64,000 bases of DNA from Auanema rhodensis. Its lineage: Eukaryota > Animalia > Nematoda. The translations under genes and the position numbers were made by a program. Location: positions 7,502,001 to 7,566,000 of the forward strand of contig OZ059894.1 in assembly GCA_964057225.1 (NCBI GenBank), in the 5' to 3' direction. The notes below the pieces were generated by a model. The model was given only the letters and a program-made list of their open reading frames with translations. It did no database searches and was not told the DNA's origin. Shown one piece after another: positions 2,767-61,726 of the stretch. Every line of letters starts with the position of its first letter. Within the stretch, counting starts at the first letter, position 1.

Positions 2767-5700
2767 TTGAGAGAAGAAGGTGATTCCTCTTCTTCTTCTC
2801 ACTCTTCTTCTCTAACAATTAGAACGAGAAGTAAAAGCAGAAAGGCCATCACTGAGGAAACACCTCGGGCACCTACTACAGTACGAAATAGATCACCAAG
2901 TCGGTGGGCCGCTGCTATAACTAAAGCTTTTGAAAGAAAAATGACTCCTACCTCTCCATCTCCTAATTCTAATGTTGCTCCACCCTCTAGAAATATGGCA
3001 ACTATTTTGAATTGCCATCTCTGTCCCAGGTATGACGGCTCTCGTAGCTTTCGTTCTTTTGTTGAATCTTTAAATAGATTTTTTAATGTTATGAATCTAA
3101 GCTTACCTGAGAGACTATTAATTTTGCCTCTTCTTTTGGAATCAAATGAAACAGCTCTCTCCTTGTATAATAGTATTCCTAGTGGCATAAGAACTAATGG
3201 CCCATGGATTGTTTTGATGGATCAGCTCACTGAGCTTTTAGCGCCTAAAACAGATAAAAATTTCACCATAGCGCTTATTCATCGAATACAACAAGGAGAT
3301 AAATCTGTTCTTGATTTTAGTATGGAATTAGAGAGAATGGCAAGCACCATAATGTCACCAATGGATCCCGAGCGGGAACCAATGTTGAAAACGGCATTTT
3401 TAAATGGTTTAAAAGAGGAACTGGGTATTGCGGTTTTAACTAAAAACCCCGCCACTTATGAACAAGCTAAGAAATTAGCTAGGTTTGAAGAAGGCGTTCG
3501 AAATAGCTTCATGAAAAGAAATGAAGACACCAGCACCTTGAAGGAGCTCATAAATGCTTTACAGCATAAATTAAGCTTTAGTGAAGAAAGAGAAAGAAGT
3601 AGGAATAATAATAATAATAAAAATTATAAAAATAATAAAAATAATAAAAAAAATAATAACTGGACTCAGCACAATAATGGCTCTAATGATTATGAGCGAG
3701 AGAGAGAGCGACCTTCTGCCGTACGTTATAATAATAATAACTCGCAGAACGGGAATATGAATAGGCGTCCTAACCCGGGAAACCGCCCATTTGCCAATGG
3801 CAGAAATGCCAATAGCTCGTCTTGGAACCCTAGGCCTAGTTCCCCAAGAAGACAAAGACCATCAGCCAATGGGAATGGTAACTCAAGGGTATACAGCGTA
3901 GCGACCCCATTCATGCCACCGGTCACGTTGTGCCTGACTTTATTGGCACTCTCATGCCTTCCCTTTGGGTCGGCAAAATATCAGATTTGCGCTCAATCTG
4001 AAGGGGGTATATTAGTAACACCTCCTGTGGTCACAGGCTGCCATAAGGCAGAAATTGAAAAGGCTCACAGTGTTGAGGTAGAAATATATCTACCAAAGGC
4101 TGAGATAGAGTCATGGGAAGCATGGAAATGCTATGTGAAAAAGTATAAAAGCTGTGTGAGAGATTTCATGTTTTTGAGAGATCGTAACACCACATTCTCT
4201 CATATTGAAACAGTAGATAAGAAAGATTGTGTTCGAGCACATAGAAATCGTATGTGGAATGATAAAATCATGAATGCCCAACAGCATTCAGTTTTTGAAA
4301 CACCATTAAACGAGCATAATCCAACTCGCTCTTGGTCCACTGAAGAATGTGTAGAAATTGAACAATTTGTATTGAAGCGAGGGATAATAACTAGATTGAA
4401 AGAAGATCACATTGTATCAGACTTATTTATAAATACTGATAATTGTAAAGGAAATGAAGGGTTTTGTGCAACTGGTGAAGGTGCAGTTATCTGGCAACCA
4501 CCTATCCCATCAGTTGTCTGTCACTATCAAAAACTTGGCCCCTTCTCCGCCATGTTGGGTGATCATATTCTTCTAGTTCACTCTATTGAAAGCGCTTTTG
4601 TTCTCCAAAATCATTCCACATCCGCTCACGTTCAATCTTGTTTCGAATTCGCTGTTTTTGAATCATCCTCTGAGGCAATTATCCGATTCACAGCATATCC
4701 CCGTGTTTATAATTTGCTTGATCTTTCCAATACTTTGCTTAATGCTGATAGACGCAGAAATAAACGTAATGCATTACCTCAAAAACATCGCTCTTTCAGT
4801 GATGATTATCTTTTTGTTAATGCGAAATCCCAACCATATGCGTTTCCATTTCTAAGACCTACTTTCATTTTTGGATCTGCATCTATCACTAAGTTTTACG
4901 CAAAATATATGAGATATGCAGCTACATCAGCTTATGAGAGTTTGCTCCAATTCGCGATAGATAATCCACTGTTCATTGACACAATTGTTAGTTTAGGATT
5001 GACAAAAGATCACATAACTAACTGGGCAAAGTCTAATAATTTCAAAGATCCCAATCTTTTGATTTTACAATGTATGGGTATAGAGGAAATTAAACTGGCT
5101 ACTAGACAGGTGATTAATAGCATGAAATTGGATGATCTTATCACTCAAGTAGCTCGTCGTATAGAAGTTCCTCGGTTAAAAAGATCGTTGATGAAATCTA
5201 CAACATCCATAGAAGATTTCTTTCGAGGAATGGCTCACGCAGTAGTATATCAAGCCACAATTCTTGATGGTACACAAACAGTTCCATCAATTGAACAGTT
5301 GGCAAGAGCCTTATATCCATCTATATTACCACGCAGTGGAAATATGAATCAATCTGAAATTATTGCAACTGCTCAAGGCATGTTATTCATGATCCAACAA
5401 CAATCGGGAAAAGAACAAATATCTCGTGACATGCAAGTCAGTCGACAACAAAAAGCTGATGCTACTGTTAGAAATAACCAAGAGCAAGATTTAGCAATTA
5501 TATCCAAGCTGCCTGACTATCACAACCTTTATACAAAGAATAGTACAGCATATTATGGATTTCCTCCACAGTCCATCGAATACCCACAGGAAAATCCTAA
5601 ATTCAATAAAACAGAAGTTTTAGAATTCATAAGTTGGGTTAAAACTCAAATCACAACTGATAAAAATATGGTACAGCATACTACTGTAACCCCAATAACT

Positions 5701-8700
5701 TCCACCAAAACTACAATTCGTAGTTTAACAACTCCTACCTCTAATGCGTACGAGAGAGGTCGAGAGTTGTATGTAGCAGAAGTATATGACAATGTTCTCC
5801 ACAAATCAGAGCATAAAACTAAAACGATAATAGATAATAAGTTGAATTATGGGTTTGAGAAAGCGCGTCTCTCCATAATTGACGAATTTCATCAACAGTT
5901 TCATACCATCTGTAAATCTCAAATGGAAACTGTAAAAAGCTGGCAAGCTATATTACGTATACATCCTACAATAGGAGTACGAGCTATGCTTCAGCGGGAT
6001 GATATCGTTGCCCGATTTGTTGGAAGAAATGTTTTAAAAATAACAACTTGTCAGGAAATAGAACCACATTTCATTTATCGTAATCATTCTTACAATGATA
6101 AATGTTATGCAGAGACCCCTGTTTTAACACACGATAAACAATTATTCTTTGCTCCTATCGATAGCTACGATTTGAGCACTGAAGGACATGAGATCAATTG
6201 TGAACACGAAGAGACAGAAATTTGGTATGAAAATGGAACATGGAGAGATTATAAAGGTGACACACATAAAGTAGATAGTATTCATTCAGAAAAACATGAT
6301 CATTATGCTGAATTGAGTAAACTTCGATTCACAGGGCGGAATTTGTTTGAAAATTCGACTGAAAAATCCTTAGCCCTATCTATTGGATTAACTTATGGTT
6401 ATAGTTTATCTACTTCACCTCACCATGATCTTCTCCGCGTAATTTCTCGTTCACGTGATTGGCCTCAAATTTCCTCTTTTATCTTCAAAGGAAGTAAACT
6501 TATAAGAGATGCCAGGAAAATTGTTTTCTCCAATTGGGATCTGTTCATTGACTTTTGTATAGGTTCAATTGAACGAACACTCATTACCATCGGTTGTATA
6601 ACTCTGATATTATGTCTAATGATAGCATTATATTTCACTATAAAATGTTATCTCTCCCCTACTTCTATGTTAAAAATAAACCATATCATGTTGAGCCCAA
6701 CAGCTCCACCACTTGAGGGAGATGAGATTCATGAAACAGTTAGTGATGAATTGATGCGGAGCTATTTTCCCACCATAATAACTTACATTCCTTTAGCCAT
6801 ACCTTTTGTATGTCACACAACAACAAAGAAAAATGGACACATGTTACCGTTTGTTCATATTGACATTGAAGGTAGAGGACTGTTAGCATTATGGGATTCT
6901 GGAGCTACGGTCTCATATATTCCGTTCTCCACATTGGCATATATTGGAAGACAATATTTTACAAAATATTCTAAATCTGCATCCACTGCAAATGGATCAG
7001 AGTTTCGCTTTGTGGGAAAATGCAAGTTAGATGTGGGTATAGCAGGTTACCAAGTGGAACACGAATTTTTAATATCTGAAGACAATGACTGTCCAGGACA
7101 AATGTTACTTGGTACTGATTTTATGCGTACGTTGGAAGAAAGAGAGATATTTACTACATTAAAACTATGTAAAGGAAAGTTGATTGTTGGTAATATGGAA
7201 ACACCCTTAGTAAAACCTGGTTGTTTTGCATATAAAACCACAACTAAAACAGTAAATATCATAAGTTTGTCCACAGTAACAGTTCCACCACATAGTACCT
7301 CCCACATATCTTTGCAAACAGGACCAGAATTAGATTTTGATCAATATGCTCTTTTAAAATCTAGCACAGGTCCTATCTCAATTCCAGATGCCGCCATAGG
7401 ACCTTTTCCTATTACTATGGTAGTATCAAACAATTCTTCAAAGCCAATTAAAATTAATAAAAATGACCACATTGGTTCAGGACTTATAGCATCTAAAGAA
7501 ATTATGAACGATTATGTTCCACCTGAAGCTGATTGGGAAGATAAGTTACCAACTTTTCCTCAGCATCTTTTGGATGATTTGAACTTCAATTCTTGCACTC
7601 TGTCCCATAAAATGAAGAAAAATCTGATCACAATCATTAAGGAAAACCAAACGGCATTTTTCAACCATGATCATAATATTGGTCTCTTTTGCGGACCAGT
7701 TGAACATGCCATTCCTATAAGATCTGATATGGATTTTCCAAAAAGTAGATCTTACAGAGTACCATTGGGTAAGCAAGAAGAAGTAGAACGGCAAGTGAAA
7801 GAAATGTTGTCGCAAGGTATAATCGAAAATTCGACGGCTACTTTCACTAGTCCGGTTGTTCTTGTGAAAAAGAAAGATAATTCTTTCCGGTTCGTAACTG
7901 ACTTTAGAGCATTGAATAGTGTTACTAAGAAACAAACATACAGCATCCCACACATTCCTGATATCATAGACTTAGCGGCTGGAGCTCAGTTCTTTTCGAA
8001 TTTTGATCTCATTTCTGGTTTCTTCCAAATACCGTTGAAACGCTCAGATAGACACCTAACTGCTTTTACCACTCCATCAGGTACCTATCAGTATTGCCGA
8101 ATGCCTATGGGATTGTGTGGAGCGCCACACACTTTTCAATCCGCAGTACGATACTTGCAATCTCTTGTTAGATGCAAACTGTTTGTATATCTAGATGATT
8201 TGCTAATAATTTCAAACTCAGCTGATGAACATTTAAGAGATATACAAGAAGTGCTGAAAAAGGTCACTGAACTAGGGTTAAAAATTAAGTTATCTAAATG
8301 TTGCTTTGCAGCCACTGAAGTAAAGTTTTTGGGTTTTGTAATAGGTAGAAATGGTGTTAAACCAGATCCTGCTAAAATACAGGCTGTTTCCGAATTTCCA
8401 AATCCAAGCACAGTTACGGCTGTCAGATCCTTTCTAGGTATGACTAACTATTTTCGACGGTTTATTCAAAATTATGCCGGAATAGCTGAGCCATTGTATA
8501 AGTTAACACATAAGGATACTCCTTTTGAGTGGAAATCGGAACATGCAGACGCATTTAAAACTTTAAAAACATCACTGTGTACTGCCCCTGTACTGAAACC
8601 TCCTAAAGCAGACCAACCTTTTGTTATAGAAAGTGATGGCAGTATGATCGCTGTGGGAGCAGTTTTATTGCAATCAGCAGAGAAAAATTCTCCATTACAC

Positions 8701-10374
8701 CCGATTGCGTTCGCTAGTAGAAAGTTGACTCCAGCGGAACGGAAATATCCTCCTATTGAAGTTGAAGCACTCGGTTTAGTCTTTGCTCTTCAACAATTCC
8801 GTACCTATGTATTAGGAGTACCTACCACAGTTATCACAGATCACCGACCATTAACCAGTTTAATGTCGCGTAAAGATCTCATAGGTAGATTAGCCAAGTA
8901 TCAACTAATGATACAAGATTTCAACATAAAGATTGAATATCGTCCTGGCAAATTAAACAGTGTCTGTGATGCTCTCTCCAGGTATATAGGAAACGAAGCA
9001 AATGACAGTCGTCCTACTAAACCAAAGGACAAAGTAAAACCTGTTGATGCTTTTATTGCTCATATCACAACTATTTCTTCTATTGACCAACTAAATTGTG
9101 AAGAAATACGGAAAGTTCAAGCTGGAGTTCCCTGGATTCGCGAAGCACTTTCTCAAATTAATAATGATAACTGTCCGGCTAATATATCAGACCGGTATGA
9201 AGAACGAGAAGGCATATTACATGCAAAACAAGCGAAAAATTATTTGAAACCATCTATTATTTTGCCTCGTAACGACAAAATAACTGATGTTGTTATCAAG
9301 TTTTTTCATGAAGATTCCAAAATTGGTGCACACCTAGGTATAAATAAAACTACTGATGCGATTCGACGACGATTCTTTTGGACTAATATGGTTCCACAAA
9401 TAACTGAATTTATTAATCGTTGTACAAAATGTGCAAGTAGGAAATCTAACCCACACCAATCGTATATTCAACCTATGGGAAGATTTGTTATACCCGAAAA
9501 GCCATTTGATCGTATTCATGTAGATATACTAGGTCCTTTACCTCGCACTAATGATGGACATCGATACATCTTGAGTATTCAAGACGCTTTTAGTAAATGG
9601 GGAACAACTTGCCCATTAATAACACAAACGGCTACTGAAATCACAAAAGCGTTTGTAATTAGATTTGTTTTCATATATGGACCACCAATGAGTATGATAA
9701 CCGATAATGGTAGTAGCTTTTTGTCATCTGAATTTCAAGCTATGTGTAAACAATTTGGAATTGAACACACTACTACGCTACCATATCATAAAAATGCTAA
9801 TGGACAAGTGGAGAGACTTCATAGAACTTTAGAAGAAGCTCTCTCTTCATTCGTGAATGAACAACAAACTAACTGGGATATACACCTACCTAAAGTTATG
9901 TTTGCGATCAATACGTTACCAAACTCATCAACATCTATTAGTCCATATGTTGTATTATTTGGTCGGGATGCAAGACTTCCTATTGACCATCAATTGCCTG
10001 GAAATAATCTTCAAACTGAAGAACCAGCCAATCCTACAGAAGATTTTGTTAATAGATCGCTAATACAAAATGAAAGCACATCTAATATAGTAAAAGATAG
10101 AATTGAAACATGCACAAAGAAGAATGAACAACGGTACAATACACGAAATAGAACACAAAATAAAGAAATTCAGGTTAATGACTTAGTTATGATAAAAGTG
10201 AATTCTACTCGAAACAAACTAACACCTTCATTCGAAGGGCCTTATTTAGTTACAGCAGTTCAAAGATCTTTCGTCGTGGTTCAAACAGATAAAGGAAAAA
10301 GCAGAAGAGTACACAAGGACTTCGTCAAACCTTACCAACGGACAACATCTATTCCGGTTATCACAATTTCTTGA
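2767..10374 (+). CDS. E1 Gag-Env-Pol polyprotein (~2535 aa; true start uncertain, frame open from 2620, first ATG at 2941)
   Basis: Capsid-like Gag (CPRYDG...AFLNGL), N/R/G-rich tract, signal-like segment ~3922-3975, Cys-rich ectodomain, furin-like RRRNKR 4750-4767, TM ~6580-6642, protease WDSGA ~6892, RT YLDD 8188-8199, RNase H, IN with HHCC, DDE and GPY. Confidence 0.95.
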   Translation: MREEGDSSSSSHSSSLTIRTRSKSRKAITEETPRAPTTVRNRSPSRWAAAITKAFERKMTPTSPSPNSNVAPPSRNMATILNCHLCPRYDGSRSFRSFVESLNRFFNVMNLSLPERLLILPLLLESNETALSLYNSIPSGIRTNGPWIVLMDQLTELLAPKTDKNFTIALIHRIQQGDKSVLDFSMELERMASTIMSPMDPEREPMLKTAFLNGLKEELGIAVLTKNPATYEQAKKLARFEEGVRNSFMKRNEDTSTLKELINALQHKLSFSEERERSRNNNNNKNYKNNKNNKKNNNWTQHNNGSNDYERERERPSAVRYNNNNSQNGNMNRRPNPGNRPFANGRNANSSSWNPRPSSPRRQRPSANGNGNSRVYSVATPFMPPVTLCLTLLALSCLPFGSAKYQICAQSEGGILVTPPVVTGCHKAEIEKAHSVEVEIYLPKAEIESWEAWKCYVKKYKSCVRDFMFLRDRNTTFSHIETVDKKDCVRAHRNRMWNDKIMNAQQHSVFETPLNEHNPTRSWSTEECVEIEQFVLKRGIITRLKEDHIVSDLFINTDNCKGNEGFCATGEGAVIWQPPIPSVVCHYQKLGPFSAMLGDHILLVHSIESAFVLQNHSTSAHVQSCFEFAVFESSSEAIIRFTAYPRVYNLLDLSNTLLNADRRRNKRNALPQKHRSFSDDYLFVNAKSQPYAFPFLRPTFIFGSASITKFYAKYMRYAATSAYESLLQFAIDNPLFIDTIVSLGLTKDHITNWAKSNNFKDPNLLILQCMGIEEIKLATRQVINSMKLDDLITQVARRIEVPRLKRSLMKSTTSIEDFFRGMAHAVVYQATILDGTQTVPSIEQLARALYPSILPRSGNMNQSEIIATAQGMLFMIQQQSGKEQISRDMQVSRQQKADATVRNNQEQDLAIISKLPDYHNLYTKNSTAYYGFPPQSIEYPQENPKFNKTEVLEFISWVKTQITTDKNMVQHTTVTPITSTKTTIRSLTTPTSNAYERGRELYVAEVYDNVLHKSEHKTKTIIDNKLNYGFEKARLSIIDEFHQQFHTICKSQMETVKSWQAILRIHPTIGVRAMLQRDDIVARFVGRNVLKITTCQEIEPHFIYRNHSYNDKCYAETPVLTHDKQLFFAPIDSYDLSTEGHEINCEHEETEIWYENGTWRDYKGDTHKVDSIHSEKHDHYAELSKLRFTGRNLFENSTEKSLALSIGLTYGYSLSTSPHHDLLRVISRSRDWPQISSFIFKGSKLIRDARKIVFSNWDLFIDFCIGSIERTLITIGCITLILCLMIALYFTIKCYLSPTSMLKINHIMLSPTAPPLEGDEIHETVSDELMRSYFPTIITYIPLAIPFVCHTTTKKNGHMLPFVHIDIEGRGLLALWDSGATVSYIPFSTLAYIGRQYFTKYSKSASTANGSEFRFVGKCKLDVGIAGYQVEHEFLISEDNDCPGQMLLGTDFMRTLEEREIFTTLKLCKGKLIVGNMETPLVKPGCFAYKTTTKTVNIISLSTVTVPPHSTSHISLQTGPELDFDQYALLKSSTGPISIPDAAIGPFPITMVVSNNSSKPIKINKNDHIGSGLIASKEIMNDYVPPEADWEDKLPTFPQHLLDDLNFNSCTLSHKMKKNLITIIKENQTAFFNHDHNIGLFCGPVEHAIPIRSDMDFPKSRSYRVPLGKQEEVERQVKEMLSQGIIENSTATFTSPVVLVKKKDNSFRFVTDFRALNSVTKKQTYSIPHIPDIIDLAAGAQFFSNFDLISGFFQIPLKRSDRHLTAFTTPSGTYQYCRMPMGLCGAPHTFQSAVRYLQSLVRCKLFVYLDDLLIISNSADEHLRDIQEVLKKVTELGLKIKLSKCCFAATEVKFLGFVIGRNGVKPDPAKIQAVSEFPNPSTVTAVRSFLGMTNYFRRFIQNYAGIAEPLYKLTHKDTPFEWKSEHADAFKTLKTSLCTAPVLKPPKADQPFVIESDGSMIAVGAVLLQSAEKNSPLHPIAFASRKLTPAERKYPPIEVEALGLVFALQQFRTYVLGVPTTVITDHRPLTSLMSRKDLIGRLAKYQLMIQDFNIKIEYRPGKLNSVCDALSRYIGNEANDSRPTKPKDKVKPVDAFIAHITTISSIDQLNCEEIRKVQAGVPWIREALSQINNDNCPANISDRYEEREGILHAKQAKNYLKPSIILPRNDKITDVVIKFFHEDSKIGAHLGINKTTDAIRRRFFWTNMVPQITEFINRCTKCASRKSNPHQSYIQPMGRFVIPEKPFDRIHVDILGPLPRTNDGHRYILSIQDAFSKWGTTCPLITQTATEITKAFVIRFVFIYGPPMSMITDNGSSFLSSEFQAMCKQFGIEHTTTLPYHKNANGQVERLHRTLEEALSSFVNEQQTNWDIHLPKVMFAINTLPNSSTSISPYVVLFGRDARLPIDHQLPGNNLQTEEPANPTEDFVNRSLIQNESTSNIVKDRIETCTKKNEQRYNTRNRTQNKEIQVNDLVMIKVNSTRNKLTPSFEGPYLVTAVQRSFVVVQTDKGKSRRVHKDFVKPYQRTTSIPVITIS
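3922..6645 (+). other. E1 envelope glycoprotein domain (class III, gB/chuvirus-G-like) within the polyprotein
   Basis: Signal peptide, conserved Cys, furin site, motif ILRIHPTIGVRAMLQRDDIVARFVG..VLKITTC..CYAETPV resembling gB (NP..IAS....VSARMLGDV..V..C; CYSRP), C-terminal TM. Confidence 0.8.
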
Positions 10375-10963
10375 AGGTAGTTTTTTTTAACAAAATCAAA
10401 TTGTTGAAATTTTTTTATTTTATTTTGTGCCATTTCTGATTGTACCACTTCTTTGTTGTTGATTGATTTTCTCTGAGAAGTCTGCTATTGTTTTACAAGG
10501 TTTTGTTTTATTACTCCAACTCTCATTGAGTAGATTTTTTTTTTCAACTCTTGTGAATCTTGCTATTTTTTTATGCTTAATCATTACTTGTATTCACCTT
10601 ATGGACATTAGTCATACGGGTTAAACGAGTTTTCATTTTTTTGTACAGAACGGGCTCGACCTATTCTCAGGGTAACACCGTACCTGTACAACTCAAGAAA
10701 ATGAACGACTATATCACAGTCGAATGGTTTAGAAGCAAAGCTCTCGTTTGCAAGCATTTCACTACTCAAGTGAATGGAATAGAATCTACTCGATACTACA
10801 TTTCGAATTCAACAAACTTGAAGAGACGATAGCTAAACTTTCAAATCGTATTGTATACACTTTTTTTTTTTATCCACTACACCATGATTTTTTTTCCAAC
10901 ATCCAACTATCTTAAATAATGAATTAATTTATTTTGTTTTTGAACGAGGACGTTCAACTTTTT

Positions 10964-10975
10964 AAGGTGGGGGGA
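10964..10975 (+). promoter_or_regulatory. E1 polypurine tract
   Basis: AAGGTGGGGGGA immediately before the 3' LTR. Confidence 0.85.
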
Positions 10976-11356
10976 TGTCACATCTGCTAGCACATGGTAA
11001 ACATGTGCGCGCTATTCAAATAGCGGGAGCCTGAACAAGCCCCGCCTACAACATGGGACACACATGGCACTCTTGCTTCTGGCCTAACCCAGATAGGTTG
11101 TCTTATAGCCATGTGAGTCTCATCTCTATATCATCTATATATATACTCTATTTAATACTTTATTATATCTCTTTATATTCTTTCTTAATGTAATTCTTAT
11201 ATTGTATTTTCTTGTTATCTGATAATGAATCTTTTTCTCTTTAAGTATTTGTCTTAATAAGGAAATCGGGGCGTTCGGGTCTGCCTACCTAAGGAACAAG
11301 GTAGAAGTACATATATCTTCCGACCATGAAAAGACGGGAAGAAACAATATGTAACG
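10976..11356 (+). repeat. E1 3' LTR
   Basis: Copy of 1233-1613. Confidence 0.95.
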
Positions 11357-11580
11357 GATATATTGTGATAGAAAGCTCCAAGCTTATGATTACCGTTTTT
11401 GGATGCATCAGGAATAGACGGCAGATCTCTTGTGAGATCATATTCTAGGAGATAATGTCGATTGGACATTGTTTCTTGGATATATTGTGATAAAAAGGTC
11501 CAAGCTTATGATTACGTTGTTCGGATGCATCAGGAATAGACGGCGGATCTCTTGTGAGATCATATTCTAGGAGATAATGT

Positions 11581-11652
11581 GGCCGAATGGTCTAGGGGTA
11601 TGATTCTCGCTTTGGGTGCGAGAGGTCCCGGGTTCAAATCCCGGTTCGGCCC
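11581..11652 (+). tRNA. tRNA-Pro(TGG)
   Basis: Consensus copy. Confidence 0.96.
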
Positions 11653-11955
11653 AAACTTTTGCTTTCTTTTGTTTCTGAAACAGTTTTGATAAAGCTTTCA
11701 GTTTCGGAACTTCTCTCAAATCCTTTCTTTGGATAATTTCCGGTAAAGAGGTCTAGGCTTATGGTTACGTTGTTTGCATGCATCAGGAATAGACGGCAGA
11801 TCTCTTGTGAGATCATATTCTAGGAGATAATGTCGAATGGACATTGTTTCTTGGATATATTGTGATAAAAAGGTCCAAGCTTATGATTACGTTGTTTGGA
11901 TGCATAAGGGATAGACGGCAGATCTCTTGTGAGATCATATTCCAGGAGATAATGT

Positions 11956-12027
11956 GGCCGAATGGTCTAGGGGTATGATTCTCGCTTTGGGTGCGAGAGG
12001 TCCCGGGTTCAAATCCCGGTTCGGCCC
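11956..12027 (+). tRNA. tRNA-Pro(TGG)
   Basis: Consensus copy. Confidence 0.96.
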
Positions 12028-13327: not shown

Positions 13328-14068
13328 AAAACATAACTGCTTTGGATTTTATCCCCATAGAGTATGTAACCTTCCTCAACTCATTTTGTTGCATACATCA
13401 TAAGATAACCACATATTCCTACCGTAACCTTAAAATTTTCACATATTTCTGTTAAAACCGGAATAATTTTCGTATTCTTCAGCAAATAAGCGAAAAAAAA
13501 AAAAAAAAATTTTCTCGTTCTTTTGTTGTTCATATTTGATTGCGAAATTTTATTTAATAATTTTACTTCAAAAAGGTACAATCGAAAAAAAAAAAAAAGA
13601 AAAAAGCGATGTAATTTTCTATTCATTTGTGAACGACAAAGGAAACACAAAGTAAACTTATGCCTCATACACTTTTTGTATTGTGAAGGTTATTCAAAAT
13701 GGTTGCAATTCCATTTTGAAATTGGTTCCAAGTGACTAAAAGAACCGGAAACACAAAAGAAAAAAAAAATTTTTGAAAAGTACACATGTACAACAAACAC
13801 CGTCATTACGGATTTAATAGAAGGACCGAGTATGTCAAATTATAAACACGATTGCTGATTGCCGAATACGGTGGATGGGCGGAGTTAGATCTCTGGCCAA
13901 GATTGAAAATTCCTTCTCATTCACCCTGCAGCATCGCCCCAGCGACGCACGAAAAGTTTCTACTTTAATACAACTCTCATCCTATCTACAGAATACTCAG
14001 CTACTAACGTCAACATCCCTCACGTAGCCCACCACTCTCGGTTTTTCCAAACCAAGAGTACTACAAAG

Positions 14069-17000
14069 GTGGCAAAGAGATTTGCTTCGGCTTTTTCAGC
14101 CCTTCACCCATCAGATTCTAACAGCGACGCTACCGTCGCTAGCCGTACAAGAAGCCGCACACGACTCCTCAGTGTTCAAATAGAAGAGTCTAATCAGCCG
14201 GACGAAAAGCCGAAACCACAACTCGACAAATTCTATACTCCACGCGAAGGTACATATTCACCTTCTGACGACACCGACGAAGACCCGGACTTCATCATAG
14301 CCGACGGCAACGCTCAAACTCCCACTACAAACCCCAAGGTACGCTCATTTAATACTAATAAAAATCGAAAAATTCAAAAAGAAAATCCGACAACCGTATC
14401 TGCCTCTCCTGTTAACTCAGATCCAAACACTTTATCAGCTATCACTGATAACACACTCTCTCCTTCTATAGAGCTAACCCAGAGTCCACAGGCGTATTCC
14501 GCAACTACAGACCTTCGAAACTCTTCAAATCAAGAGCTCACCGAAGCTAATACTAGCCAATCTCCTTTATCAGCTATCACTGATAAGCTCAAAAAGAATA
14601 TTTCCAATAAGAGGAAAACCAGCACACCCCGTAAACGAACAAAAGTAACCACTGAGGCAGAAGCACCCTCCGCAGAAGCTTCAGAAGTTTCACCGTTATC
14701 ACTTACAACTGATAAGTACAAAAACAAGAGATCGTTAACAGCCCGACTGATAAAGATCTTAAACTTATCTCCAGGTGATAAAGCAACAACTCCCAATACC
14801 GTAAGACCTCGATTTGCTTCACATAACTCTTATCTTAACAAATCAGATAGCGCAATCCTTAGCTCCCAATCAACTCCTATAACACCGCCTCAGGCATCTG
14901 GCAGGGTTATCAAGGTCCAAAAAGCTCGTTCTACAACAGCGGTTCCCGTTATAAGCTCTTCAATCGATTCAGAGACCGGTGGCTCTTCAGAGACAAGAAG
15001 AAACACTTACCCAGAAGCATCAATAAGTGAAGTGATAACATCACCTATCACACACCCCAAAGGCATTTCATCAGAAATGACTGAAACACCACGTCTCCCG
15101 GGAGCTGGTAAATCAACCATTGCTCAGGCATTAAGCTCTCCATACTGCCCCATATATGATGGAAGTCGTAACTTTCGAGATTTCGTTGCGAAATTTAACA
15201 CCTTCTCTAATGCCTTAGGCTTAGTGATGCCTGAGAGATTAACTATCTTGCCTCTACTTCTCAAAAATGAAAGAGCGGAAGAAGCTTATACACAGCTGGC
15301 CAATGAAATAAAGACAGCTGGACCTTGGATCACACTGATCGAAGAGTTAACATCGAAGCTTTGCCCTGAATATAATCAGGACCCGGCACTGATAACGCTT
15401 CAAAATTCCACCCAAGGCGACTTATCAGTGGATGGATTTGCGCAAACCCTACGTAACTTAAGTTTGAACGCATTTTCTCAGAGTGATCCTCACAAGGATC
15501 ACATCCTCCGATCAACATTTTTGCGAGGACTCAAAAACAGCATACGCCCTGGGGTAATCAGAGCAAAACCCAAAACTTTTTCTGAAGCTATTGATAACGC
15601 CCGTTGGGAAGAATCAATAGCTAATCAAGTAGCTGACCCTCAAGCGTTACTTGTAAACGCAATAGAAAGAACATTCCCACAAAGGAGAGATCCTGGTAGG
15701 CGAGGAAACGGTAGAGGATATCAATCATTCAACAATAAAAATTATCAAAATTATCAAAATTATCAAAATTCATCAAACTATCAAAAACCTCAAAATTATC
15801 AAAATTCATTTGCAAGAAATCGCAATTTTGGTAATCGCGGTCGAAATTTTTCAAATCAACCTAACTCGAATTGGTATCAAAGAAATAATACTTTATCACG
15901 CAACCAGGAGATAAACGATAACCGTCAACGCTTAAATAATCCCTTCAGGGGAAATAACAACAACAGAGGAAGAGGAAGAGGCTCTAGAGTCAATAACTTG
16001 ACTTTAATATCTCCTTTAACATTAGCAGTAGCTTTATCAGTAATCTTATCACTGATCACCACTGTGGAAGCTTATCAGCTATGCACAAAAGCTACCGGAG
16101 GAGCCCTTCTGATTCCACCTTCCCTTAGAAAATGTTCCATACCATCAACAAAACACGTGCTTCGGACAAGAATTCATCTTTACACAAGAAATCAAACAGC
16201 TCACGAATGGGACGCCTGGAGATGCTCTAAAGAGGTTCATAAAATATGTATAAGAGACCTCCTATTTCTTCGAGACTACAACAGTACAGTTGACAGAATC
16301 GAAAAAATACCAGCCGCAGAATGCAGGTTGGCAGTACGAGATAGGAAATGGAGCTCTGAGGAATTGAAAAAACTTGATAGCATTACATATGCAACAAACG
16401 AGCCAACATTTTCGCCCGGACGATCGCTCAATAATGAACAATGCGAAGAAAAACCTCGACTGGTACTAGAACGAGGAGTAATGACAAGAATGCCAGATGA
16501 CACTGTAATATCGAATTTAATTTTGAATACTGAAGGCTGTCTTTCGCATCACGGAGAATGTGCGTCTAACACTTCTATAATCATTTGGGACAAACAGCCT
16601 TACGAGAATCGTTGTAATTACATTGACATGAGCGAATATGATGCTATAATTGGAGACAGCATCATTCTCATCCCAACAACGCAGTCTGCACTTGTCATTG
16701 AGAACAAAAAAGTCCCGAAAGAAATATCATCTTGTTTCCAACAACCAATTTTTCACACTACAACTGGAAATTATATTCTCTTCCCGAAGTTCCCAAACGA
16801 CATCAATATACATGAACTGATCGAAAGAGAATTCAAGAAATTACCGCCAAAAAGGACAAAAAGAGCCATTGCAGAATGCAAGGTTGAAATGAACAAAGAA
16901 TGGATTCAACAACAGGAAGATTTTGAAACAATAATTTTAAACATATGCCCATATCCATTTCTCCGACCAGTTATGAGCAACCCGGGAATTTCCCAAATTA

Positions 17001-20000
17001 TCCCACTCATGCGTAGCAGACAAATAGCAGATCCTTCATACTCTGTTGTCGACTGGATTTCCGCACATCCTGAGAAATTCTATTTCTTTCTTCGAAATCC
17101 CGTCTCAGATAAATCAATACAACGATTTTTCAAAATTTACGAACTGCGTAACCCTGAAGAGGCTATACTCTTCTTTTTGGCACAAAAAGAGCTGGCAGCA
17201 ACCACAAGAGGCGCTATCCGGTACCTTACTTCTCTACAACTATTAGAGCAGATCGGCGACAGATTGTCAGCGGAAGAATTTGACGAAAAACTCTTAAAGA
17301 AAGATGGATCATACCGCGAAAGAGCAGAAATCATAGCATTAGAACTAGCATTTACGCCCGTAGTATTTGAAAACAACTTGTCGGTACCATCAAAACAAGA
17401 AGTTTTAAAAGCCTTTGTGAACATGCCGCCTACGAGGCCCAGTTTAACGACTGATAGTGAGGAGGAGAGAAGAGTACTTGAAAACACTCTCGACTTATAT
17501 CACAACATAATCAAACTACGCGTGGCTAGGCCAAATAGAACGATAGCCGCCAAGGATGATGAAAGGTTTCGTCATCTGCCGGTTCCTGCCACCAAACTAC
17601 CAGATATACATACATTATACCACGATATAGAGAACAATTTTGGTATACCGGTGGGCCCACATCCTCGTATACAGAATCCTAGCAAAGATACGCGAGAATT
17701 GCTCATTCGGACATTCCTACCTTTGCTAGAAGACACACGCAAACCACCTTACTTGAGTAGAAGACTGCCTATTACCACCACTCAAATGACACCACTATCA
17801 GGGCCTCCGGAAACAATTTACAAAGAACCTACAAAAAGTCAGACGACCTATGCACCACAGCCAGTAACAAAAACCGCTACCTTGGTGCAGCAAACAACAA
17901 GATTTGATGAAACTACTGAGACAACCACGACACACGCAACAAGCACGATGTTATATGCTTTGTACACTGAGAAAACACCTTCAACAATGACACCCATATC
18001 CGAAACCACGCTACGCTCCTTAAGGAAACAAAGAACATCATCGCCTCCTATAGAAACAAAAGCGATTCAGGCTCAGAGCAATTATATAGCATCAAAAGTG
18101 AACAATGAAATGCAAACTAATCAAAATACATCTCGAAAAATAGCACAAGATCATCTGCAATACGCTACCACAATTGTGCAGGAAGAACTACAACGACATT
18201 TTGTGGAATCTTTTGAATCCATATGTGAAATCCAGAATAGATACCTGGAATTATGGCGTTCTATTTTACAAATAGAGCCCACAATTGCAATGAGGACCAT
18301 ACTAGGTAGAGACGATATTGCAGCGCGTTTTGTGGGCAGCGAGATAGTACATGTTCACATATGTCTACCTCTGAAGCCTAAGACTGTTCATTATTCACAT
18401 AAGATCAACGAAACTTGCTATCTAGAGACGCCAGTAACAACAGAGGAGAATAAATTGTATTTTGCTGCACCAGGATCGAAAGATTTATTGACACATGGAA
18501 AAGAAATAAATTGCGATCACGTACCAACTGATGTATATTCAAAAGATGGCGAGTGGATGAATGTCAATGGGTCGGTAGAAGTGAACCCCATCTCACTTCT
18601 TGATGGTGCTCACCATCATCAAATTACACCATTGAAATTTACAGGAGCTCATCTTTATACGAATCTTTCATCACGAATATACTCAATGACTACAGCAATC
18701 GCATACGGAGCTAGTCTTGCATCAATACGACAAAATCACGTATTACATACCATTCACAATGATCCTCAAATAACATCGACATTTAATCTTTTGAAAAGGG
18801 GCAGCGATTATATCTCGAAAGCTAAAGAATTTACATCTACAGCCTGGAACAGTGTCATAGATAGTTTGATAGGGTCAATTGAAAAAACACTCATATTCAT
18901 AGGATCCGTGGTCATAATTATCGCATTGACCATTATTGTTATCGTCATCGCTAAACTATACTTCTGTAAAACAATGCCGTTACCTATCATGCACATTCAA
19001 GGCATGGATCATGAGCCCCCAGGCTATGAAGAAACATTGGAACTTGTTAGTCGAGCAGATCAACCAATGCCAGAAAGCATAATGAAACAATACTATCCAG
19101 CTCTGGTGACATTTATTCCATTAGCAATGCCATTCATCTCTTCTATTAGAGCAACGGAAACAAAGTTACCTTTGATATACATATCAGTAGAGGACAAGCT
19201 GATACTAGCACTATGGGATTCAGGCTCATCAGTCTCATATGTTAGGCTATCGACACTAAAATATTTAAATATGGCTCAACATATTAAAAAGAGACGTTTA
19301 GTTGCAATGGCTGCTAATAAATCAACATTCACATTATATGGAAAAATAGAACTCATTATTGAAATTGCTGGTTATGAAATCGAACACACATTTTTGGTCT
19401 CGAGCGATAACGATTGCCCAGCCCCAGCGTTAATTGGACTCGACTTCATGAAAACGCTCGATAGCGAAAACATCGACGTCAGCCTGAAACCATCCAAAAA
19501 AACGCTCGAGATTGGTAACCACGCTCTTCCTTTGATTGAACAAGAAGTCATTAAACAGAAATCAATAACTGTAAACATCATCAATTTAAAAAGACGTATA
19601 CTACAGCCTGAAGAAGAAGCTCCTATACCAATCAAAACAGACAGGCCACTCGAACAAAACGAAGTGGTAGTCTTAGGAGACAACGGAAGCGCGTTAGCCA
19701 CCAGTTATCCAACAGCGTTTCGTGATACATGTGGAGTATATGTTATATTCAGAAACAATACAGATAAAACGATAGAAATAGAACCCAACTCGGTAATTGG
19801 GCAAGCAAACATAGGAGAAATCCAGTCCTGGCAGTCCATCAAGAACGAGCCAACAACGCCTTATATACCACCCGAGGCAGACTGGGAAAACAAATTACCA
19901 CACTTTCCCAGAGATTTCATGAAAGACCTTAACCTTGAGAAAGCTGACCTAACAAAGGAAGATAAACAAGAACTAACAAAAATAATCGAACAACATAGGG

Positions 20001-22885
20001 AAGCTTTTCTAAATGAAGATAGAAAAATAGGCTTATTCAAAGGACCCGTCGAACATACTATTCCATTAAGAACGGACATGGATATGCCAAGACCAAGAAT
20101 AACACGTATTCCACTTGGAAAACAAGAAGAAATAGAAAGACAAATCCTAGAAATGCTTGAACAAGACATTATTGAACCATCTACATCTTTGTTCAATAGC
20201 CCTGTAGTATTGGTCAAGAAGAAAGACGATACTTATAGGTTCGTGACAGATTTTCGAGCCTTAAATAACGTAACACGCAAGCAAACATATGTAATACCAA
20301 GCATTTCGGACATAGTTGACATGGCAGCGGGAGCTAAATTCTTCTCAAACTTCGACTTAGTATCAGGATTCTTTCAAATATCTTTACGGAAATCAGATCG
20401 ACGATTAACAGCATTTACTACAACATCAGGAACGTATCAATACAAACGTATGCCTATGGGTCTCTGTGGAGCCCCACATACATTTCAAACAGCTGTAAGA
20501 TACTTGCAAAGTAAATGTTCTTGCAAACTATTTGTCTACCTGGACGATCTATTAGTCATATCAGATACAAGAGAACAACATCTCAAAGACATCGACGAAT
20601 TATTGCACGCAGTAGAAAAATTAGGAATGAAAATAAAGCTCAAGAAATGCGCTTTTGCACAACCAGAAGTGAAATTCTTAGGACTAATAGTTGGACGACA
20701 AGGAATGAAGCCAGATCCTCAAAAGGTCGCGGCTATACAGGACTATCCTGCACCTAAGAACGCAACAGGAGTACGCGCTTTCTTAGGAATGGTTGGATTC
20801 TTTCGAAAATTTATAAAAGATTTTGCACGGATCGCAAGTCCTTTATACGACTTAACAAAGGCAGAGACTGAATTTATATGGAATAAAGAACATCAAGAAG
20901 CTATAGATCTCCTAAAAAGAAGTCTTATACAGGCACCCGTGTTAAGCCCACCAAAATCAGATCGCTTATTTATCATTGAAAGCGACGGGAGTAACATTGC
21001 CATAGGTGCCGTATTACTACAACCAGAAGATCCAAGACAACCTCTAAAGAATCTACATCCAATCGCATTTGCAAGCAGAAAATTAGTAAAAGCAGAAAGG
21101 AATTATGCGCCTATAGAAATAGAAGCGCTAGGCCTAGTGTACGCGCTAAATCAGTTTCGAACATATATTCTTGGAACACATACAATATGCATTACGGACC
21201 ATCGACCTCTTACTAGCTTACTAACGCGAAGAGACTTATTTGGACGACTCGCGAAATTTCAGCTAGTAATCCAAGAATACGATATCGAGATAAGATATAG
21301 AGAAGGCCAATTGAACAAAGTATGCGATGCTTTATCCCGATACATAGGAGAAGAAGCCAACGACGCAAGGCCTGAGACGAAGAAGAAGAAGAAAAAGGAA
21401 GAAATTCACATAAATGCCATAAATACACCAACAATAAAGGAGCTTCAACTAAACACCCCTTGGATTAAAAGAACGATAGCGGAGATAGAATATAGAGCAC
21501 AAAAGAATATGACAGCAAACGATAGATACTGCGTTATAAACGATTTGCTCTATACAAGACCAACAGACAAAAAGCCTCATCCTGCAATCGTTATACCACA
21601 AGACCATCCAATAACGGACGAAATTATCAAATTATTTCACGAAGATCCCACCATAGCAGCACATCAAGGAATAAATAAGACAAAGGAAGCAATATTAAGA
21701 AGATTTTATTGGACAAACATGCAGAATGACATCACAATGTTTATCAAAAACTGCATAAAATGTGCGCAAAGAAAGAAGGATCCCCATTCTATGACAGTTC
21801 AACCAATCGGACAATTTGAAATACCAAGTAAACCATTCGAACGGGTTCACATGGATATTATGGGACCATTCCCTCCCACACGAAGAAATTGCACCCATGT
21901 AATTACCATACAAGACTCATTCACTAAGTGGGCGACAACAATAGCAGTTCCGTGTATTACAACAGAAATTACCATCGACAGATTTCTAAGGAATTTTGTA
22001 TACATTTATGGACCTCCCCAGCGACTGATCACCGACCGAGGATCCAATTTTGTATCAAAAAAGTTCGAAGAAATGTGTAAAATGGTTGGAATAATACATG
22101 AACCTACCCTTCCTCATCAAAAGAACTCTAACGGTCAAGTCGAAAGACTACATAGAACGTTAGAGGAAGGGTTAACACACTATATGAAAGAAGACCTAAG
22201 CGAATGGGATACCATTTTACCCAAGATTACTTTCGCGATCAACAATATTCAGCACGCTACAACCGGAATTGCACCATATGTAGCACTATTCGGAAAAGAA
22301 GGCAGAATGATACTCGATGCCGAATTACCAGACACCATACGGAGAATACAGGAAATTTCTGATGAACTACTAGCAAGAAAGCCACAAATGATGAAAAGAA
22401 ACCAAATAATTCATGACCGAATAGCGCAGAATCAAGAAAATGCAAAGAAAAAGAAGGACCAAACACAAAGAACGCGCGACAGAAATATACAACCAGGAGA
22501 TATGGTCATGACCACTATAAAATCACATCAAATTGGTCAGAAACTACGAAAAAGCTACGATGGACCCTTCGAAGTCATCAATGTCGAAGGATCTAAGGTC
22601 CAAATAAGGAATGGAGCAGGAAAAATTCAAGACATTCATAAAGACAACCTCAAATTATTCTCTAATTCGGAACAAGACAGCGCTTACAATACCAGAGCGA
22701 GCAAATGGAAACAACAAGCCGAGGAAGAAGACGACAGCGATATTGAGGTCATCGAAGTAATAAAAGGGAACAAGGGAAGCGACTCAGAAACAGAACCAGA
22801 ATCAGAAATGGAGGATGGAAACGAACTATGGTTACCGACTAATACGAACCGACAGAGAATAAAAAAAGTAAAATATTATAATTGA
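14069..22885 (+). CDS. E2 Gag-Env-Pol polyprotein (2938 aa from GTG; first ATG at 15077)
   Basis: S/T/basic N-terminal extension, Gag (CPIYDG...TFLRGL), N/Q/R-rich tract, signal ~16004-16072, furin-like KRTKR 16850-16864, TM ~18890-18952, WDSGS ~19214, YLDD 20537-20548, RNase H, IN with GPF. Confidence 0.95.
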   Translation: MAKRFASAFSALHPSDSNSDATVASRTRSRTRLLSVQIEESNQPDEKPKPQLDKFYTPREGTYSPSDDTDEDPDFIIADGNAQTPTTNPKVRSFNTNKNRKIQKENPTTVSASPVNSDPNTLSAITDNTLSPSIELTQSPQAYSATTDLRNSSNQELTEANTSQSPLSAITDKLKKNISNKRKTSTPRKRTKVTTEAEAPSAEASEVSPLSLTTDKYKNKRSLTARLIKILNLSPGDKATTPNTVRPRFASHNSYLNKSDSAILSSQSTPITPPQASGRVIKVQKARSTTAVPVISSSIDSETGGSSETRRNTYPEASISEVITSPITHPKGISSEMTETPRLPGAGKSTIAQALSSPYCPIYDGSRNFRDFVAKFNTFSNALGLVMPERLTILPLLLKNERAEEAYTQLANEIKTAGPWITLIEELTSKLCPEYNQDPALITLQNSTQGDLSVDGFAQTLRNLSLNAFSQSDPHKDHILRSTFLRGLKNSIRPGVIRAKPKTFSEAIDNARWEESIANQVADPQALLVNAIERTFPQRRDPGRRGNGRGYQSFNNKNYQNYQNYQNSSNYQKPQNYQNSFARNRNFGNRGRNFSNQPNSNWYQRNNTLSRNQEINDNRQRLNNPFRGNNNNRGRGRGSRVNNLTLISPLTLAVALSVILSLITTVEAYQLCTKATGGALLIPPSLRKCSIPSTKHVLRTRIHLYTRNQTAHEWDAWRCSKEVHKICIRDLLFLRDYNSTVDRIEKIPAAECRLAVRDRKWSSEELKKLDSITYATNEPTFSPGRSLNNEQCEEKPRLVLERGVMTRMPDDTVISNLILNTEGCLSHHGECASNTSIIIWDKQPYENRCNYIDMSEYDAIIGDSIILIPTTQSALVIENKKVPKEISSCFQQPIFHTTTGNYILFPKFPNDINIHELIEREFKKLPPKRTKRAIAECKVEMNKEWIQQQEDFETIILNICPYPFLRPVMSNPGISQIIPLMRSRQIADPSYSVVDWISAHPEKFYFFLRNPVSDKSIQRFFKIYELRNPEEAILFFLAQKELAATTRGAIRYLTSLQLLEQIGDRLSAEEFDEKLLKKDGSYRERAEIIALELAFTPVVFENNLSVPSKQEVLKAFVNMPPTRPSLTTDSEEERRVLENTLDLYHNIIKLRVARPNRTIAAKDDERFRHLPVPATKLPDIHTLYHDIENNFGIPVGPHPRIQNPSKDTRELLIRTFLPLLEDTRKPPYLSRRLPITTTQMTPLSGPPETIYKEPTKSQTTYAPQPVTKTATLVQQTTRFDETTETTTTHATSTMLYALYTEKTPSTMTPISETTLRSLRKQRTSSPPIETKAIQAQSNYIASKVNNEMQTNQNTSRKIAQDHLQYATTIVQEELQRHFVESFESICEIQNRYLELWRSILQIEPTIAMRTILGRDDIAARFVGSEIVHVHICLPLKPKTVHYSHKINETCYLETPVTTEENKLYFAAPGSKDLLTHGKEINCDHVPTDVYSKDGEWMNVNGSVEVNPISLLDGAHHHQITPLKFTGAHLYTNLSSRIYSMTTAIAYGASLASIRQNHVLHTIHNDPQITSTFNLLKRGSDYISKAKEFTSTAWNSVIDSLIGSIEKTLIFIGSVVIIIALTIIVIVIAKLYFCKTMPLPIMHIQGMDHEPPGYEETLELVSRADQPMPESIMKQYYPALVTFIPLAMPFISSIRATETKLPLIYISVEDKLILALWDSGSSVSYVRLSTLKYLNMAQHIKKRRLVAMAANKSTFTLYGKIELIIEIAGYEIEHTFLVSSDNDCPAPALIGLDFMKTLDSENIDVSLKPSKKTLEIGNHALPLIEQEVIKQKSITVNIINLKRRILQPEEEAPIPIKTDRPLEQNEVVVLGDNGSALATSYPTAFRDTCGVYVIFRNNTDKTIEIEPNSVIGQANIGEIQSWQSIKNEPTTPYIPPEADWENKLPHFPRDFMKDLNLEKADLTKEDKQELTKIIEQHREAFLNEDRKIGLFKGPVEHTIPLRTDMDMPRPRITRIPLGKQEEIERQILEMLEQDIIEPSTSLFNSPVVLVKKKDDTYRFVTDFRALNNVTRKQTYVIPSISDIVDMAAGAKFFSNFDLVSGFFQISLRKSDRRLTAFTTTSGTYQYKRMPMGLCGAPHTFQTAVRYLQSKCSCKLFVYLDDLLVISDTREQHLKDIDELLHAVEKLGMKIKLKKCAFAQPEVKFLGLIVGRQGMKPDPQKVAAIQDYPAPKNATGVRAFLGMVGFFRKFIKDFARIASPLYDLTKAETEFIWNKEHQEAIDLLKRSLIQAPVLSPPKSDRLFIIESDGSNIAIGAVLLQPEDPRQPLKNLHPIAFASRKLVKAERNYAPIEIEALGLVYALNQFRTYILGTHTICITDHRPLTSLLTRRDLFGRLAKFQLVIQEYDIEIRYREGQLNKVCDALSRYIGEEANDARPETKKKKKKEEIHINAINTPTIKELQLNTPWIKRTIAEIEYRAQKNMTANDRYCVINDLLYTRPTDKKPHPAIVIPQDHPITDEIIKLFHEDPTIAAHQGINKTKEAILRRFYWTNMQNDITMFIKNCIKCAQRKKDPHSMTVQPIGQFEIPSKPFERVHMDIMGPFPPTRRNCTHVITIQDSFTKWATTIAVPCITTEITIDRFLRNFVYIYGPPQRLITDRGSNFVSKKFEEMCKMVGIIHEPTLPHQKNSNGQVERLHRTLEEGLTHYMKEDLSEWDTILPKITFAINNIQHATTGIAPYVALFGKEGRMILDAELPDTIRRIQEISDELLARKPQMMKRNQIIHDRIAQNQENAKKKKDQTQRTRDRNIQPGDMVMTTIKSHQIGQKLRKSYDGPFEVINVEGSKVQIRNGAGKIQDIHKDNLKLFSNSEQDSAYNTRASKWKQQAEEEDDSDIEVIEVIKGNKGSDSETEPESEMEDGNELWLPTNTNRQRIKKVKYYN
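16004..18955 (+). other. E2 envelope glycoprotein domain (class III, gB-like)
   Basis: Homologous to E1 Env (YQLC/YQIC, WDAWRC/WEAWKC, ILQIEPTIAMRTILGRDDIAARFVG, CYLETPV); Thr-rich mucin-like insert. Confidence 0.8.
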
Positions 22886-49275: not shown

Positions 49276-49280
49276 AATGT

Positions 49281-61721: not shown

Positions 61722-61726
61722 AATGT

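What the first reader, a model, noticed from the sequence alone, without database searches (positions are those of the whole stretch)
2767..22885. Two intact Ty3/gypsy-like elements with a single gag-ENV-pol polyprotein (class III fusogen between Gag and protease)
Seen: in both E1 and E2 one uninterrupted ORF runs Gag > hydrophobic signal-like segment > ~900-aa Cys-rich ectodomain with furin site > TM > PR-RT-RH-IN. Established: retroviruses and errantiviruses normally encode env as a separate, usually spliced ORF 3' of pol, and gB-like fusogens are known in the nematode Tas BEL/Pao element and in nematode Mavericks. Inference: this is a flavivirus-like topology (cytosolic Gag, lumenal Env, cytosolic Pol tethered to the Env tail) that forces 1:1:1 synthesis. 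Conservation in two diverged families with identical-looking LTRs suggests an active enveloped virus lineage. I cannot confirm that the arrangement is undescribed.
Basis: partly seen in the sequence, partly recalled or inferred. Interest (0 to 1): 0.92.

Follow-up and report, generated by a model that had tools for sequence, protein, structure and literature searches.

The report
Nematode gag-env-pol retroelements in tRNA array
Two young virus-like jumping genes, likely of a roundworm, each encode capsid, a herpes-gB-like fusion protein and copying enzymes in one unbroken frame; this gene order is already published, but one element also occurs in a shortened form that likely arose by splicing out the capsid and envelope genes.

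Summary
E1 (1233-11356) and E2 (12365-23881) each have 100% identical LTRs, a 4-bp target duplication, a tRNA-Gln primer site and one stop-free ORF running Gag > signal-like segment > ectodomain > TM > PR-RT-RH-IN. The ectodomain is a class III fusogen by Pfam, PDB sequence hits and predicted fold. The order is not new: GAG-ENV-POL Ty3/gypsy elements with gB-type Env are published for nematodes, bryozoans and flatworms (PMC13524379, citing Sacco 2022), and 49 of 150 public homologues carry env before a pol domain in one protein. 'Forces 1:1:1' is weakened. A GT..AG joint (2694/6797) that removes gag and env and lands just before the protease appears in 4 of 4 runs laid on E1, two of them DNA, which likely marks a spliced RNA that was retrotransposed. 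No such joint was seen for E2. Extras not found in my searches of print: the surrounding 'satellite' is an array of 92 tRNA-Pro genes, E1 and E2 sit 1 bp apart in a homologous spacer motif, and Env carries a ~270-aa helical insert shared only with Auanema proteins. Verdict: new members of a known kind.

The parts
1233..1613 (+). E1 5' LTR (TG...CG ends), preceded by TSD GATA at 1229-1232
1614..1625 (+). E1 primer-binding site, tRNA-Gln type
   Evidence: same 12-mer in published Caenorhabditis elements
2620..10374 (+). E1 single ORF, 2584 aa: N-extension, Gag, Env, PR-RT-RH-IN; first ATG 2941
2695..6796 (+). E1 intron-like segment (GT..AG, 4102 nt) holding all of gag and env; absent in a joined form seen in 4 of 4 runs laid
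3910..3975 (+). E1 internal signal-like segment; predicted signal-peptidase cut after Ala452 (by eye, -3/-1 rule)
3976..6579 (+). E1 class III (gB-like) ectodomain with furin-type site at 4756-4767
4801..5619 (+). E1 helical insert in Env after the furin site; shared with E2 and Auanema proteins only
6580..6636 (+). E1 transmembrane segment
6835..10374 (+). E1 Pol: protease (DSG at 6895), RT (YLDD at 8188), RNase H, integrase (HHCC at 9307)
10976..11356 (+). E1 3' LTR, preceded by purine-rich tract, followed by TSD GATA
12365..12729 (+). E2 5' LTR (CG...CG, 8-bp inverted ends), TSD ATAT; tRNA-Gln PBS follows at 12730
13907..22885 (+). E2 single ORF, 2992 aa; first ATG 15077
16001..18949 (+). 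E2 signal-like segment (16001-16057), ectodomain from 16073 (furin-type site 16853-16864) and TM (18893-18949)
19160..22885 (+). E2 Pol (DSG at 19217, YLDD at 20537, HHCC at 21638)
23517..23881 (+). E2 3' LTR
206..63185 (+). Host tandem array of 92 tRNA-Pro(UGG) genes (253-bp and 122-bp units) into which the elements are inserted

Best explanation
E1 and E2 are recently inserted Ty3/gypsy elements of the published nematode GAG-ENV-POL type, whose single ORF is likely made as one membrane-threaded polyprotein: Gag predicted in the cytosol, a gB-like class III fusogen predicted in the ER lumen, and Pol predicted back in the cytosol on the Env tail. Host signal peptidase and furin would cut the lumenal side; the element's own protease would cut at V/I-N-x-V/I-type sites that lie just before the signal segment, just after the TM and between Pol domains, so that Gag, Env and Pol are concentrated on one membrane, where particles would bud with Env. 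The full-length RNA of E1 can likely also be spliced from 2694 to 6797; that shorter RNA keeps the primer site and polypurine tract, was likely reverse-transcribed, lost most of pol by a microhomology deletion and now persists as a non-autonomous DNA derivative. Shown: anatomy, fold class, joined forms in DNA. Inferred: topology, cleavages, splicing as the origin of the joint, particles.
For: Anatomy. Fold: Pfam PF00606 and PF24664 (E 2.8e-14, above cut-off, in E2); 45 of 45 PDB sequence hits at E<=10 are herpesvirus gB, best E 0.0028; AlphaFold model pLDDT 71.9 matches gB by Foldseek (E 1.2e-9), nyami/rhabdo/chu-like G proteins (E 7.5e-16) and by VIA-align gB chains in ranks 1-5 (Z 8.9-10.6), Chandipura G rank 6. 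RT best hit Ty3 (E 2.7e-78). Topology signals in homologues: 24 of 30 have a hydrophobic segment right before Env, 30 of 30 a TM between Env and Pol (E1/E2 included). Cytosol-side motif after the TM in 19 of 38 against 1.4 by shuffle and 2 of 38 on the lumenal side (motif chosen). Variants in other runs are 12 of 20 synonymous against 22% neutral (p 2e-4; env 5 of 8, p 0.015; only the 40 of 84 rows shown were used). Joint in 4 of 4 runs with GT..AG; random deletions give GT..AG in 0.37%. Published kind.
Against: No RNA or protein evidence for the full-length polyprotein: the RNA label of the runs is a guess and contigs cannot show levels. Topology rests on hydropathy; E1's signal-like peak is modest (1.81 over 19 aa). 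Global TM-scores to gB are low (0.15-0.24 by query) because of the insert and domain placement; pTM 0.50. No CCHC knuckle in either Gag. The protease-site reading of the motif is recalled and inferred, not tested.
Confidence: 0.8

Rival explanations
1. The gag-env-skipping splice is a regulated pol mRNA (foamy-virus-like), so Pol is made mostly free of the Env tether and the 1:1:1 ratio does not hold.
For: The acceptor lies between TM and protease, 98 nt before the catalytic Asp codon, and is the only TnYAG site in that E1 linker. E2 has the same 7-letter donor word in the same phase at 14339, the only match in the first 1500 nt of each ORF, and an AG at the homologous acceptor position (19124) followed at once by an in-frame ATG. 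No ATG in any frame lies between E2's ORF start and the Gag ATG (1147 nt; expected 4.6, P 0.009).
Against: In E1 the joint is out of frame with the gag frame, the pol frame upstream of the donor has no ATG, and two out-of-frame ATGs precede the first in-frame one at 6841. No such joint in 4 of 4 runs laid on E2, and one DNA contig runs through 19124 unbroken. The Met is absent from the Auanema homologue P0154. The joined RNA contigs may come from the DNA derivative. ATG avoidance in E1 is not significant (P 0.19).
Confidence: 0.3
2. Env is used inside the animal only (cell-to-cell passage from soma to germline or between cells), or not at all now; the elements move as ordinary retrotransposons and env is kept by recent selection.
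For: No particle or infection data exist here. Non-autonomous env-less relatives share the primer site and have spread in the same array. Soma-to-germline passage is the known use of Env in Drosophila errantiviruses (recalled).
Against: Env keeps 14 order-matched cysteines, a furin site and hydrophobic fusion-loop candidates at 20-35% identity between E1 and E2, so it has been functional for a long time. This rival differs from the best explanation only in where particles travel.
Confidence: 0.5
3. The single ORF is an assembly artefact or a chance fusion of nested insertions.
For: The window is repeat-rich and holds a 7.3-kb duplication at 99.6%. No single listed contig bridges TM to protease.
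Against: Same order in two elements with 57-73% Pol identity, in 49 of 150 homologues and in print; no inner LTR or TSD; two DNA runs from two studies cover every bin.
Confidence: 0.02

Closest known systems
[quoted passage not shown] 2022, J Gen Virol 103:1739, not held)
   Same: Gene order, Ty3/gypsy Pol, gB-type Env between signal and TM, tRNA-Gln primer site (8 of 30 nematode rows seen; 2 with the identical 12-mer), about 10-12 kb. From memory, Sacco et al. describe a continuous gag-env-pro-pol ORF (recalled abstract, not seen).
   Different: A ~270-aa helical insert in Env, insertion in a tRNA-Pro array and an env-skipping joined form. The eLife main text has 0 occurrences of 'splic', 'polyprotein', 'frameshift' or 'fused'; I could not read Sacco et al.
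Atlas virus of Ancylostoma ceylanicum (Belpaoviridae; PMC9094657)
   Same: Nematode LTR element with one stop-free polyprotein that includes Env and 100% identical LTRs (passages).
   Different: BEL/Pao RT, order Gag-Pol-Env, class II phlebovirus-like fusogen.
Drosophila errantiviruses (gypsy, ZAM, Idefix)
   Same: Ty3/gypsy Pol plus Env; 4-bp TSD in an alternating AT motif (recalled).
   Different: F-type Env, downstream of pol, from a separate spliced RNA (F-type; splicing: recalled).
Foamy virus spliced pol mRNA
   Same: Pol expressed from a spliced RNA that skips upstream genes (reference titles in PMC7828637); a model for the E1 joint.
   Different: Retroviridae; the function of the E1 joint as a pol mRNA is unproven.
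Ty3, Tj1, DGLT-A and other tRNA-gene-targeting Ty3/gypsy elements (PMC5911963)
   Same: Insertion upstream of tRNA genes; the third element here lies 5 bp upstream of a tRNA.
   Different: The review lists yeasts and amoebae only (0 occurrences of metazoan, animal or nematode); E1 and E2 lie about 100 bp upstream; genome-wide preference untested.

Membership tests
Ty3/gypsy (Metaviridae) | Pol order PR-RT-RH-IN | tested here: met
Ty3/gypsy (Metaviridae) | RT closest to Ty3/gypsy rather than BEL/Pao, copia or retrovirus | tested here: met
   Ty3 RT best PDB hit, E 2.7e-78 against 1e-39 for foamy virus; no BEL/Pao Pfam domain; no tree with named reference families was built
Ty3/gypsy (Metaviridae) | LTRs, PBS, PPT, TSD | tested here: met
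   ends are TG..CG and CG..CG, not TG..CA
Nematode GAG-ENV-POL gB-type elements | Order gag-env-pol | tested here: met
Nematode GAG-ENV-POL gB-type elements | Env of HSV/gB (class III) type flanked by signal and TM | tested here: met
   signal/TM by hydropathy only
Nematode GAG-ENV-POL gB-type elements | Pol groups with nematode env-pol elements | tested here: met
   RT-RH tree of 19 rows: E1+E2 sister to a C. japonica protein (100/99), inside a clade (99/97) with C. brenneri, C. nigoni, Acrobeloides and Panagrolaimus proteins; midpoint root, the papers' own named elements not included
Nematode GAG-ENV-POL gB-type elements | Host is a chromadorean nematode | tested here: inconclusive
   All 13 named of the 20 homologues looked up are nematode proteins; no genome held
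Nematode GAG-ENV-POL gB-type elements | Cysteine-bridge class (C1a/d, C2a/c) of the eLife scheme | not tested
   figures not held
Infectious enveloped virus | Enveloped particles that enter new cells | not testable with these tools
   no experimental data
tRNA-gene-targeting retrotransposons | Genome-wide insertion at a fixed distance from Pol III genes | tested here: inconclusive
   4 distinct elements at 5, 101, 112 and 102(+122) bp upstream of a tRNA, but the window is all array outside the elements and no genome is held

The most novel reading that the evidence does not exclude
Nematode gag-env-pol viruses escape the 1:1:1 trap of their single ORF by a conserved splice that skips gag and env and yields a Pol-only RNA, the mirror image of retroviral env splicing; this RNA is packaged and has founded non-autonomous parasites, and the lineage homes to tandem tRNA-gene arrays, a targeting so far listed only for yeasts and amoebae.
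Probability: 0.25. Interest if true: 0.7.

Novelty: new member of a known kind. Interest (0 to 1): 0.4.

Why it matters
The gene order itself is in print, but how such a polyprotein is threaded, cut and dosed is not treated in the paper I could read. These two young copies give exact, testable sites: signal segment, furin site, TM, candidate protease sites and a used splice pair. They make it possible to ask whether an LTR element can assemble with Pol tethered to Env, whether splicing uncouples Pol, and whether an animal Ty3/gypsy lineage targets tRNA genes.

Tried and rejected
Single-sequence AlphaFold gave no usable model (pLDDT 31.6). ESM Atlas gave no usable hit for the ectodomain or the insert. 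The insert had no Pfam or PDB match of note (VIA rows over it were generic long helices); it was not folded alone, so 'no known fold' is not claimed. The word-index search with E1 Env found one protein only. No DNA of homologous elements was obtained from the viral or metagenome collections, so conservation of the splice acceptor beyond E1/E2 is untested. No genome is held. No RNA holder listed on record. Sacco et al. 2022 is not held; searches for its terms found no other paper. The E2 joint 15184/15347 has GT..AG ends but a poor acceptor and is left unexplained. An upstream ATG in the pol frame across the E1 joint was looked for and is absent. No extra ORF over 72 aa in either 3' region. The second RxxR site in E1 is not kept in E2. 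Low env cover in the RNA-labelled runs is not used as evidence. Searches for spliced pol in gypsy elements, spliced non-autonomous LTR derivatives and tRNA-array targeting in nematodes (listings only) showed no paper on these elements.

Full report
Observation. Six-frame listing gives two long stop-free ORFs, 2620-10374 (2584 aa) and 13907-22885 (2992 aa). Each lies in an LTR element with 100% identical LTRs, a 4-bp target duplication (GATA; ATAT), a purine tract and the same primer-binding site. Pfam finds, in order, a weak gag match (E1), gB/Monjiviricetes fusion, aspartyl protease, RT, RNase H, H2C2 and integrase core. Hydropathy shows a signal-like segment after Gag and a TM before the protease in both. 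Shuffles of the env-spanning DNA never give more than 171 open codons against 1000-1072 observed. Two DNA runs from two studies cover all 30 bins of each element, and contigs bridge the Gag/Env border. E1 and E2 are distinct families: RT 73%, integrase 57%, protease 49%, Gag 39%, Env parts 20-35% identical.

The insert is a class III fusogen. All 45 PDB sequences matched by the E2 ectodomain at E<=10 are herpesvirus gB (best 0.0028). A model built on a 45-row alignment (pLDDT 71.9, pTM 0.50) shows the long-strand fusion domain, the central helix and the crown. Foldseek lists gB in every PDB row shown (E 1.2e-9 at best) and, among viral models, rhabdo-like, nyamivirus, chuvirus-like glycoproteins and gB. 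VIA-align against 48,161 chains ranks five gB chains first (Z 8.9-10.6; prefusion HSV-1 gB 378 aligned, rmsd 6.7) and Chandipura G sixth. Global TM-scores are low, partly because about 270 helical residues plus a Thr/Pro-rich linker are inserted after the furin site. That insert is shared by E1, E2 and Auanema proteins and matched nothing else; a receptor-binding role is a guess.

It is a known kind. Chary and Hayashi (PMC13524379; abstract, sections 5 part 1, 6 part 2 and 14, passages, and parts of two supplements read; preprint passages) state that elements of Nematoda, Bryozoa and Platyhelminthes carry only HSV/gB-type Env and are arranged GAG-ENV-POL, and credit Sacco et al. 2022 for nematode elements with ENV and POL flipped. 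Of 30 of their 36 nematode rows that I saw, 8 use tRNA-Gln and 2 have the same 12-base primer site as E1 and E2. Sacco et al. is not held: I saw only its title in the reference list; that it reports a continuous gag-env-pro-pol ORF is my recall. The single-chain form is visible in public proteins: of the 150 best of 244 Env homologues, 49 carry env before a pol domain in the same protein, 13 show gag, env and pol together, and 6 have env after integrase (some are gene predictions). Named ones come from Caenorhabditis, Auanema, Acrobeloides, Panagrolaimus and Halicephalobus. In an RT-RNase H tree of the 19 proteins with both domains, E1 and E2 are sisters (99/98) next to a C. japonica protein (100/99). 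RT's best solved relative is Ty3. The host is therefore likely a nematode; two unchecked scan notes on the same genome say the same. A one-ORF polyprotein that includes Env is also known in the hookworm Atlas belpaovirus, in the order Gag-Pol-Env (PMC9094657, passages). Cer1 has no comparable Env but does use a spliced accessory RNA (PMC10309623, passages).

How it likely works. The topology signals are conserved: 24 of 30 env-pol proteins have a hydrophobic segment directly before Env and 30 of 30 a TM between Env and Pol. A V/I-N-x-V/I-type motif follows the TM in 19 of 38 proteins (1.4 expected by shuffling; 2 of 38 on the lumenal side; motif chosen after viewing), and similar words stand just before the signal segment and after the protease in E1 and E2. 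I read them as sites of the element's protease (inference from recalled gypsy cleavage sites). Variants in other runs are mostly synonymous (12 of 20; env 5 of 8; neutral 22%; only rows shown by the tool).

Laying four runs on E1 shows a joint from 2694 to 6797 with GT..AG ends in 4 of 4 (two DNA runs from two studies, two runs guessed to be RNA). The donor reads AG|GTACG and the acceptor is pyrimidine-rich TTTAG|C, 98 nt before the protease active-site codon. Random deletions give GT..AG ends in 0.37% and this fuller consensus in 0.023%; 2 of the 9 joints listed over both elements have GT..AG. A second joint, 6822 to 10114 in one run (6839 to 10173 in another), removes most of pol; 6823-6839 and 10114-10130 share 15 of 17 letters, as expected of template switching. 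So a short derivative of about 2.7 kb likely exists as DNA and records a past splice. Whether the splice serves Pol expression is open. For: E2 has the same donor word in the same phase, an AG at the homologous acceptor position with an in-frame ATG right behind it, and an ATG-free 1147-nt leader. Against: the E1 joint is out of frame with gag, two out-of-frame ATGs precede the first in-frame one, no such joint was seen for E2 in 4 of 4 runs, and the Auanema homologue lacks the Met. Foamy viruses make Pol from a spliced RNA (reference titles in PMC7828637). Either way '1:1:1 is forced' is not safe; '(env) always spliced out' is unlikely given the conserved in-frame signals.

Surroundings. The repeat around the elements is an array of 92 tRNA-Pro(UGG) genes in 253-bp units with 122-bp tRNA-less spacer copies. 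E1 and E2 sit in the same spacer motif, offset by 1 bp, 102(+122) and 101 bp upstream of a tRNA; a third LTR element sits 5 bp upstream and a fourth 112 bp upstream. All four share a tRNA-Gln-type primer site. This may be Pol III-linked targeting, a preference for an alternating AT motif, or tolerance of insertions in a redundant array; with no genome held it cannot be decided. A 2018 review lists such targeting in yeasts and amoebae only (PMC5911963, passages).

Verdict. Real, well supported, and a new member of a published kind. The env-skipping joint, the tRNA-array sites and the Env insert were not found in my searches, but Sacco et al. and the figures and four unread supplementary tables of the eLife paper may bear on them. 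The scan's own index held no note with these words or this sequence. Interest 0.40.

Noticed in passing
window:206-63185: Tandem array of 92 tRNA-Pro(UGG) genes in 253-bp units mixed with 122-bp tRNA-less spacer copies; most copies score as intact tRNAs.
   Followed up: partly
window:45123-49275 (copy at about 57569-61721): Non-autonomous LTR element with 412-bp identical LTRs, ends like E2's, tRNA-Gln-type PBS, TSD AATG ending 1 bp before a tRNA gene; carries a 267-codon frame (47857-48660, first Met 48058) with no Pfam match.
   Followed up: partly
window:50812-54440 (- strand; part copy at 63258-64000): E2-related derivative (about 75% identical), TSD CCTT, lacking gag core, env and pol but keeping about 130 codons of the N-terminal extension at 70% amino-acid identity.
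   Followed up: partly
window:13907-15076 and 2620-2940: Both ORFs open far upstream of the first ATG (390 and 107 codons), begin at an acceptor-like CAG|C in the same phase and contain no ATG in any frame; may be a coding exon fed by an upstream exon, trans-splicing or a non-AUG start.
   Followed up: partly
window:44265-51554 and 56712-64000: 7.3-kb segmental duplication at 99.6% identity that copies array units and inserted elements together; unequal crossing over or an assembly effect.
   Followed up: no
window:15185-15346: In-frame 162-nt deletion form in E2 gag seen in two DNA runs, GT..AG ends but weak acceptor; unexplained.
   Followed up: partly
window:1233-1240, 12365-12372, 45123-45130: LTR ends are TG..CG or CG..CG with 7-8-bp inverted termini instead of the usual TG..CA.
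   Followed up: no
window:2995-3900 and 15077-16000: Neither Gag has a CCHC knuckle; the nucleocapsid position holds an Asn/Arg-rich low-complexity stretch.
   Followed up: partly
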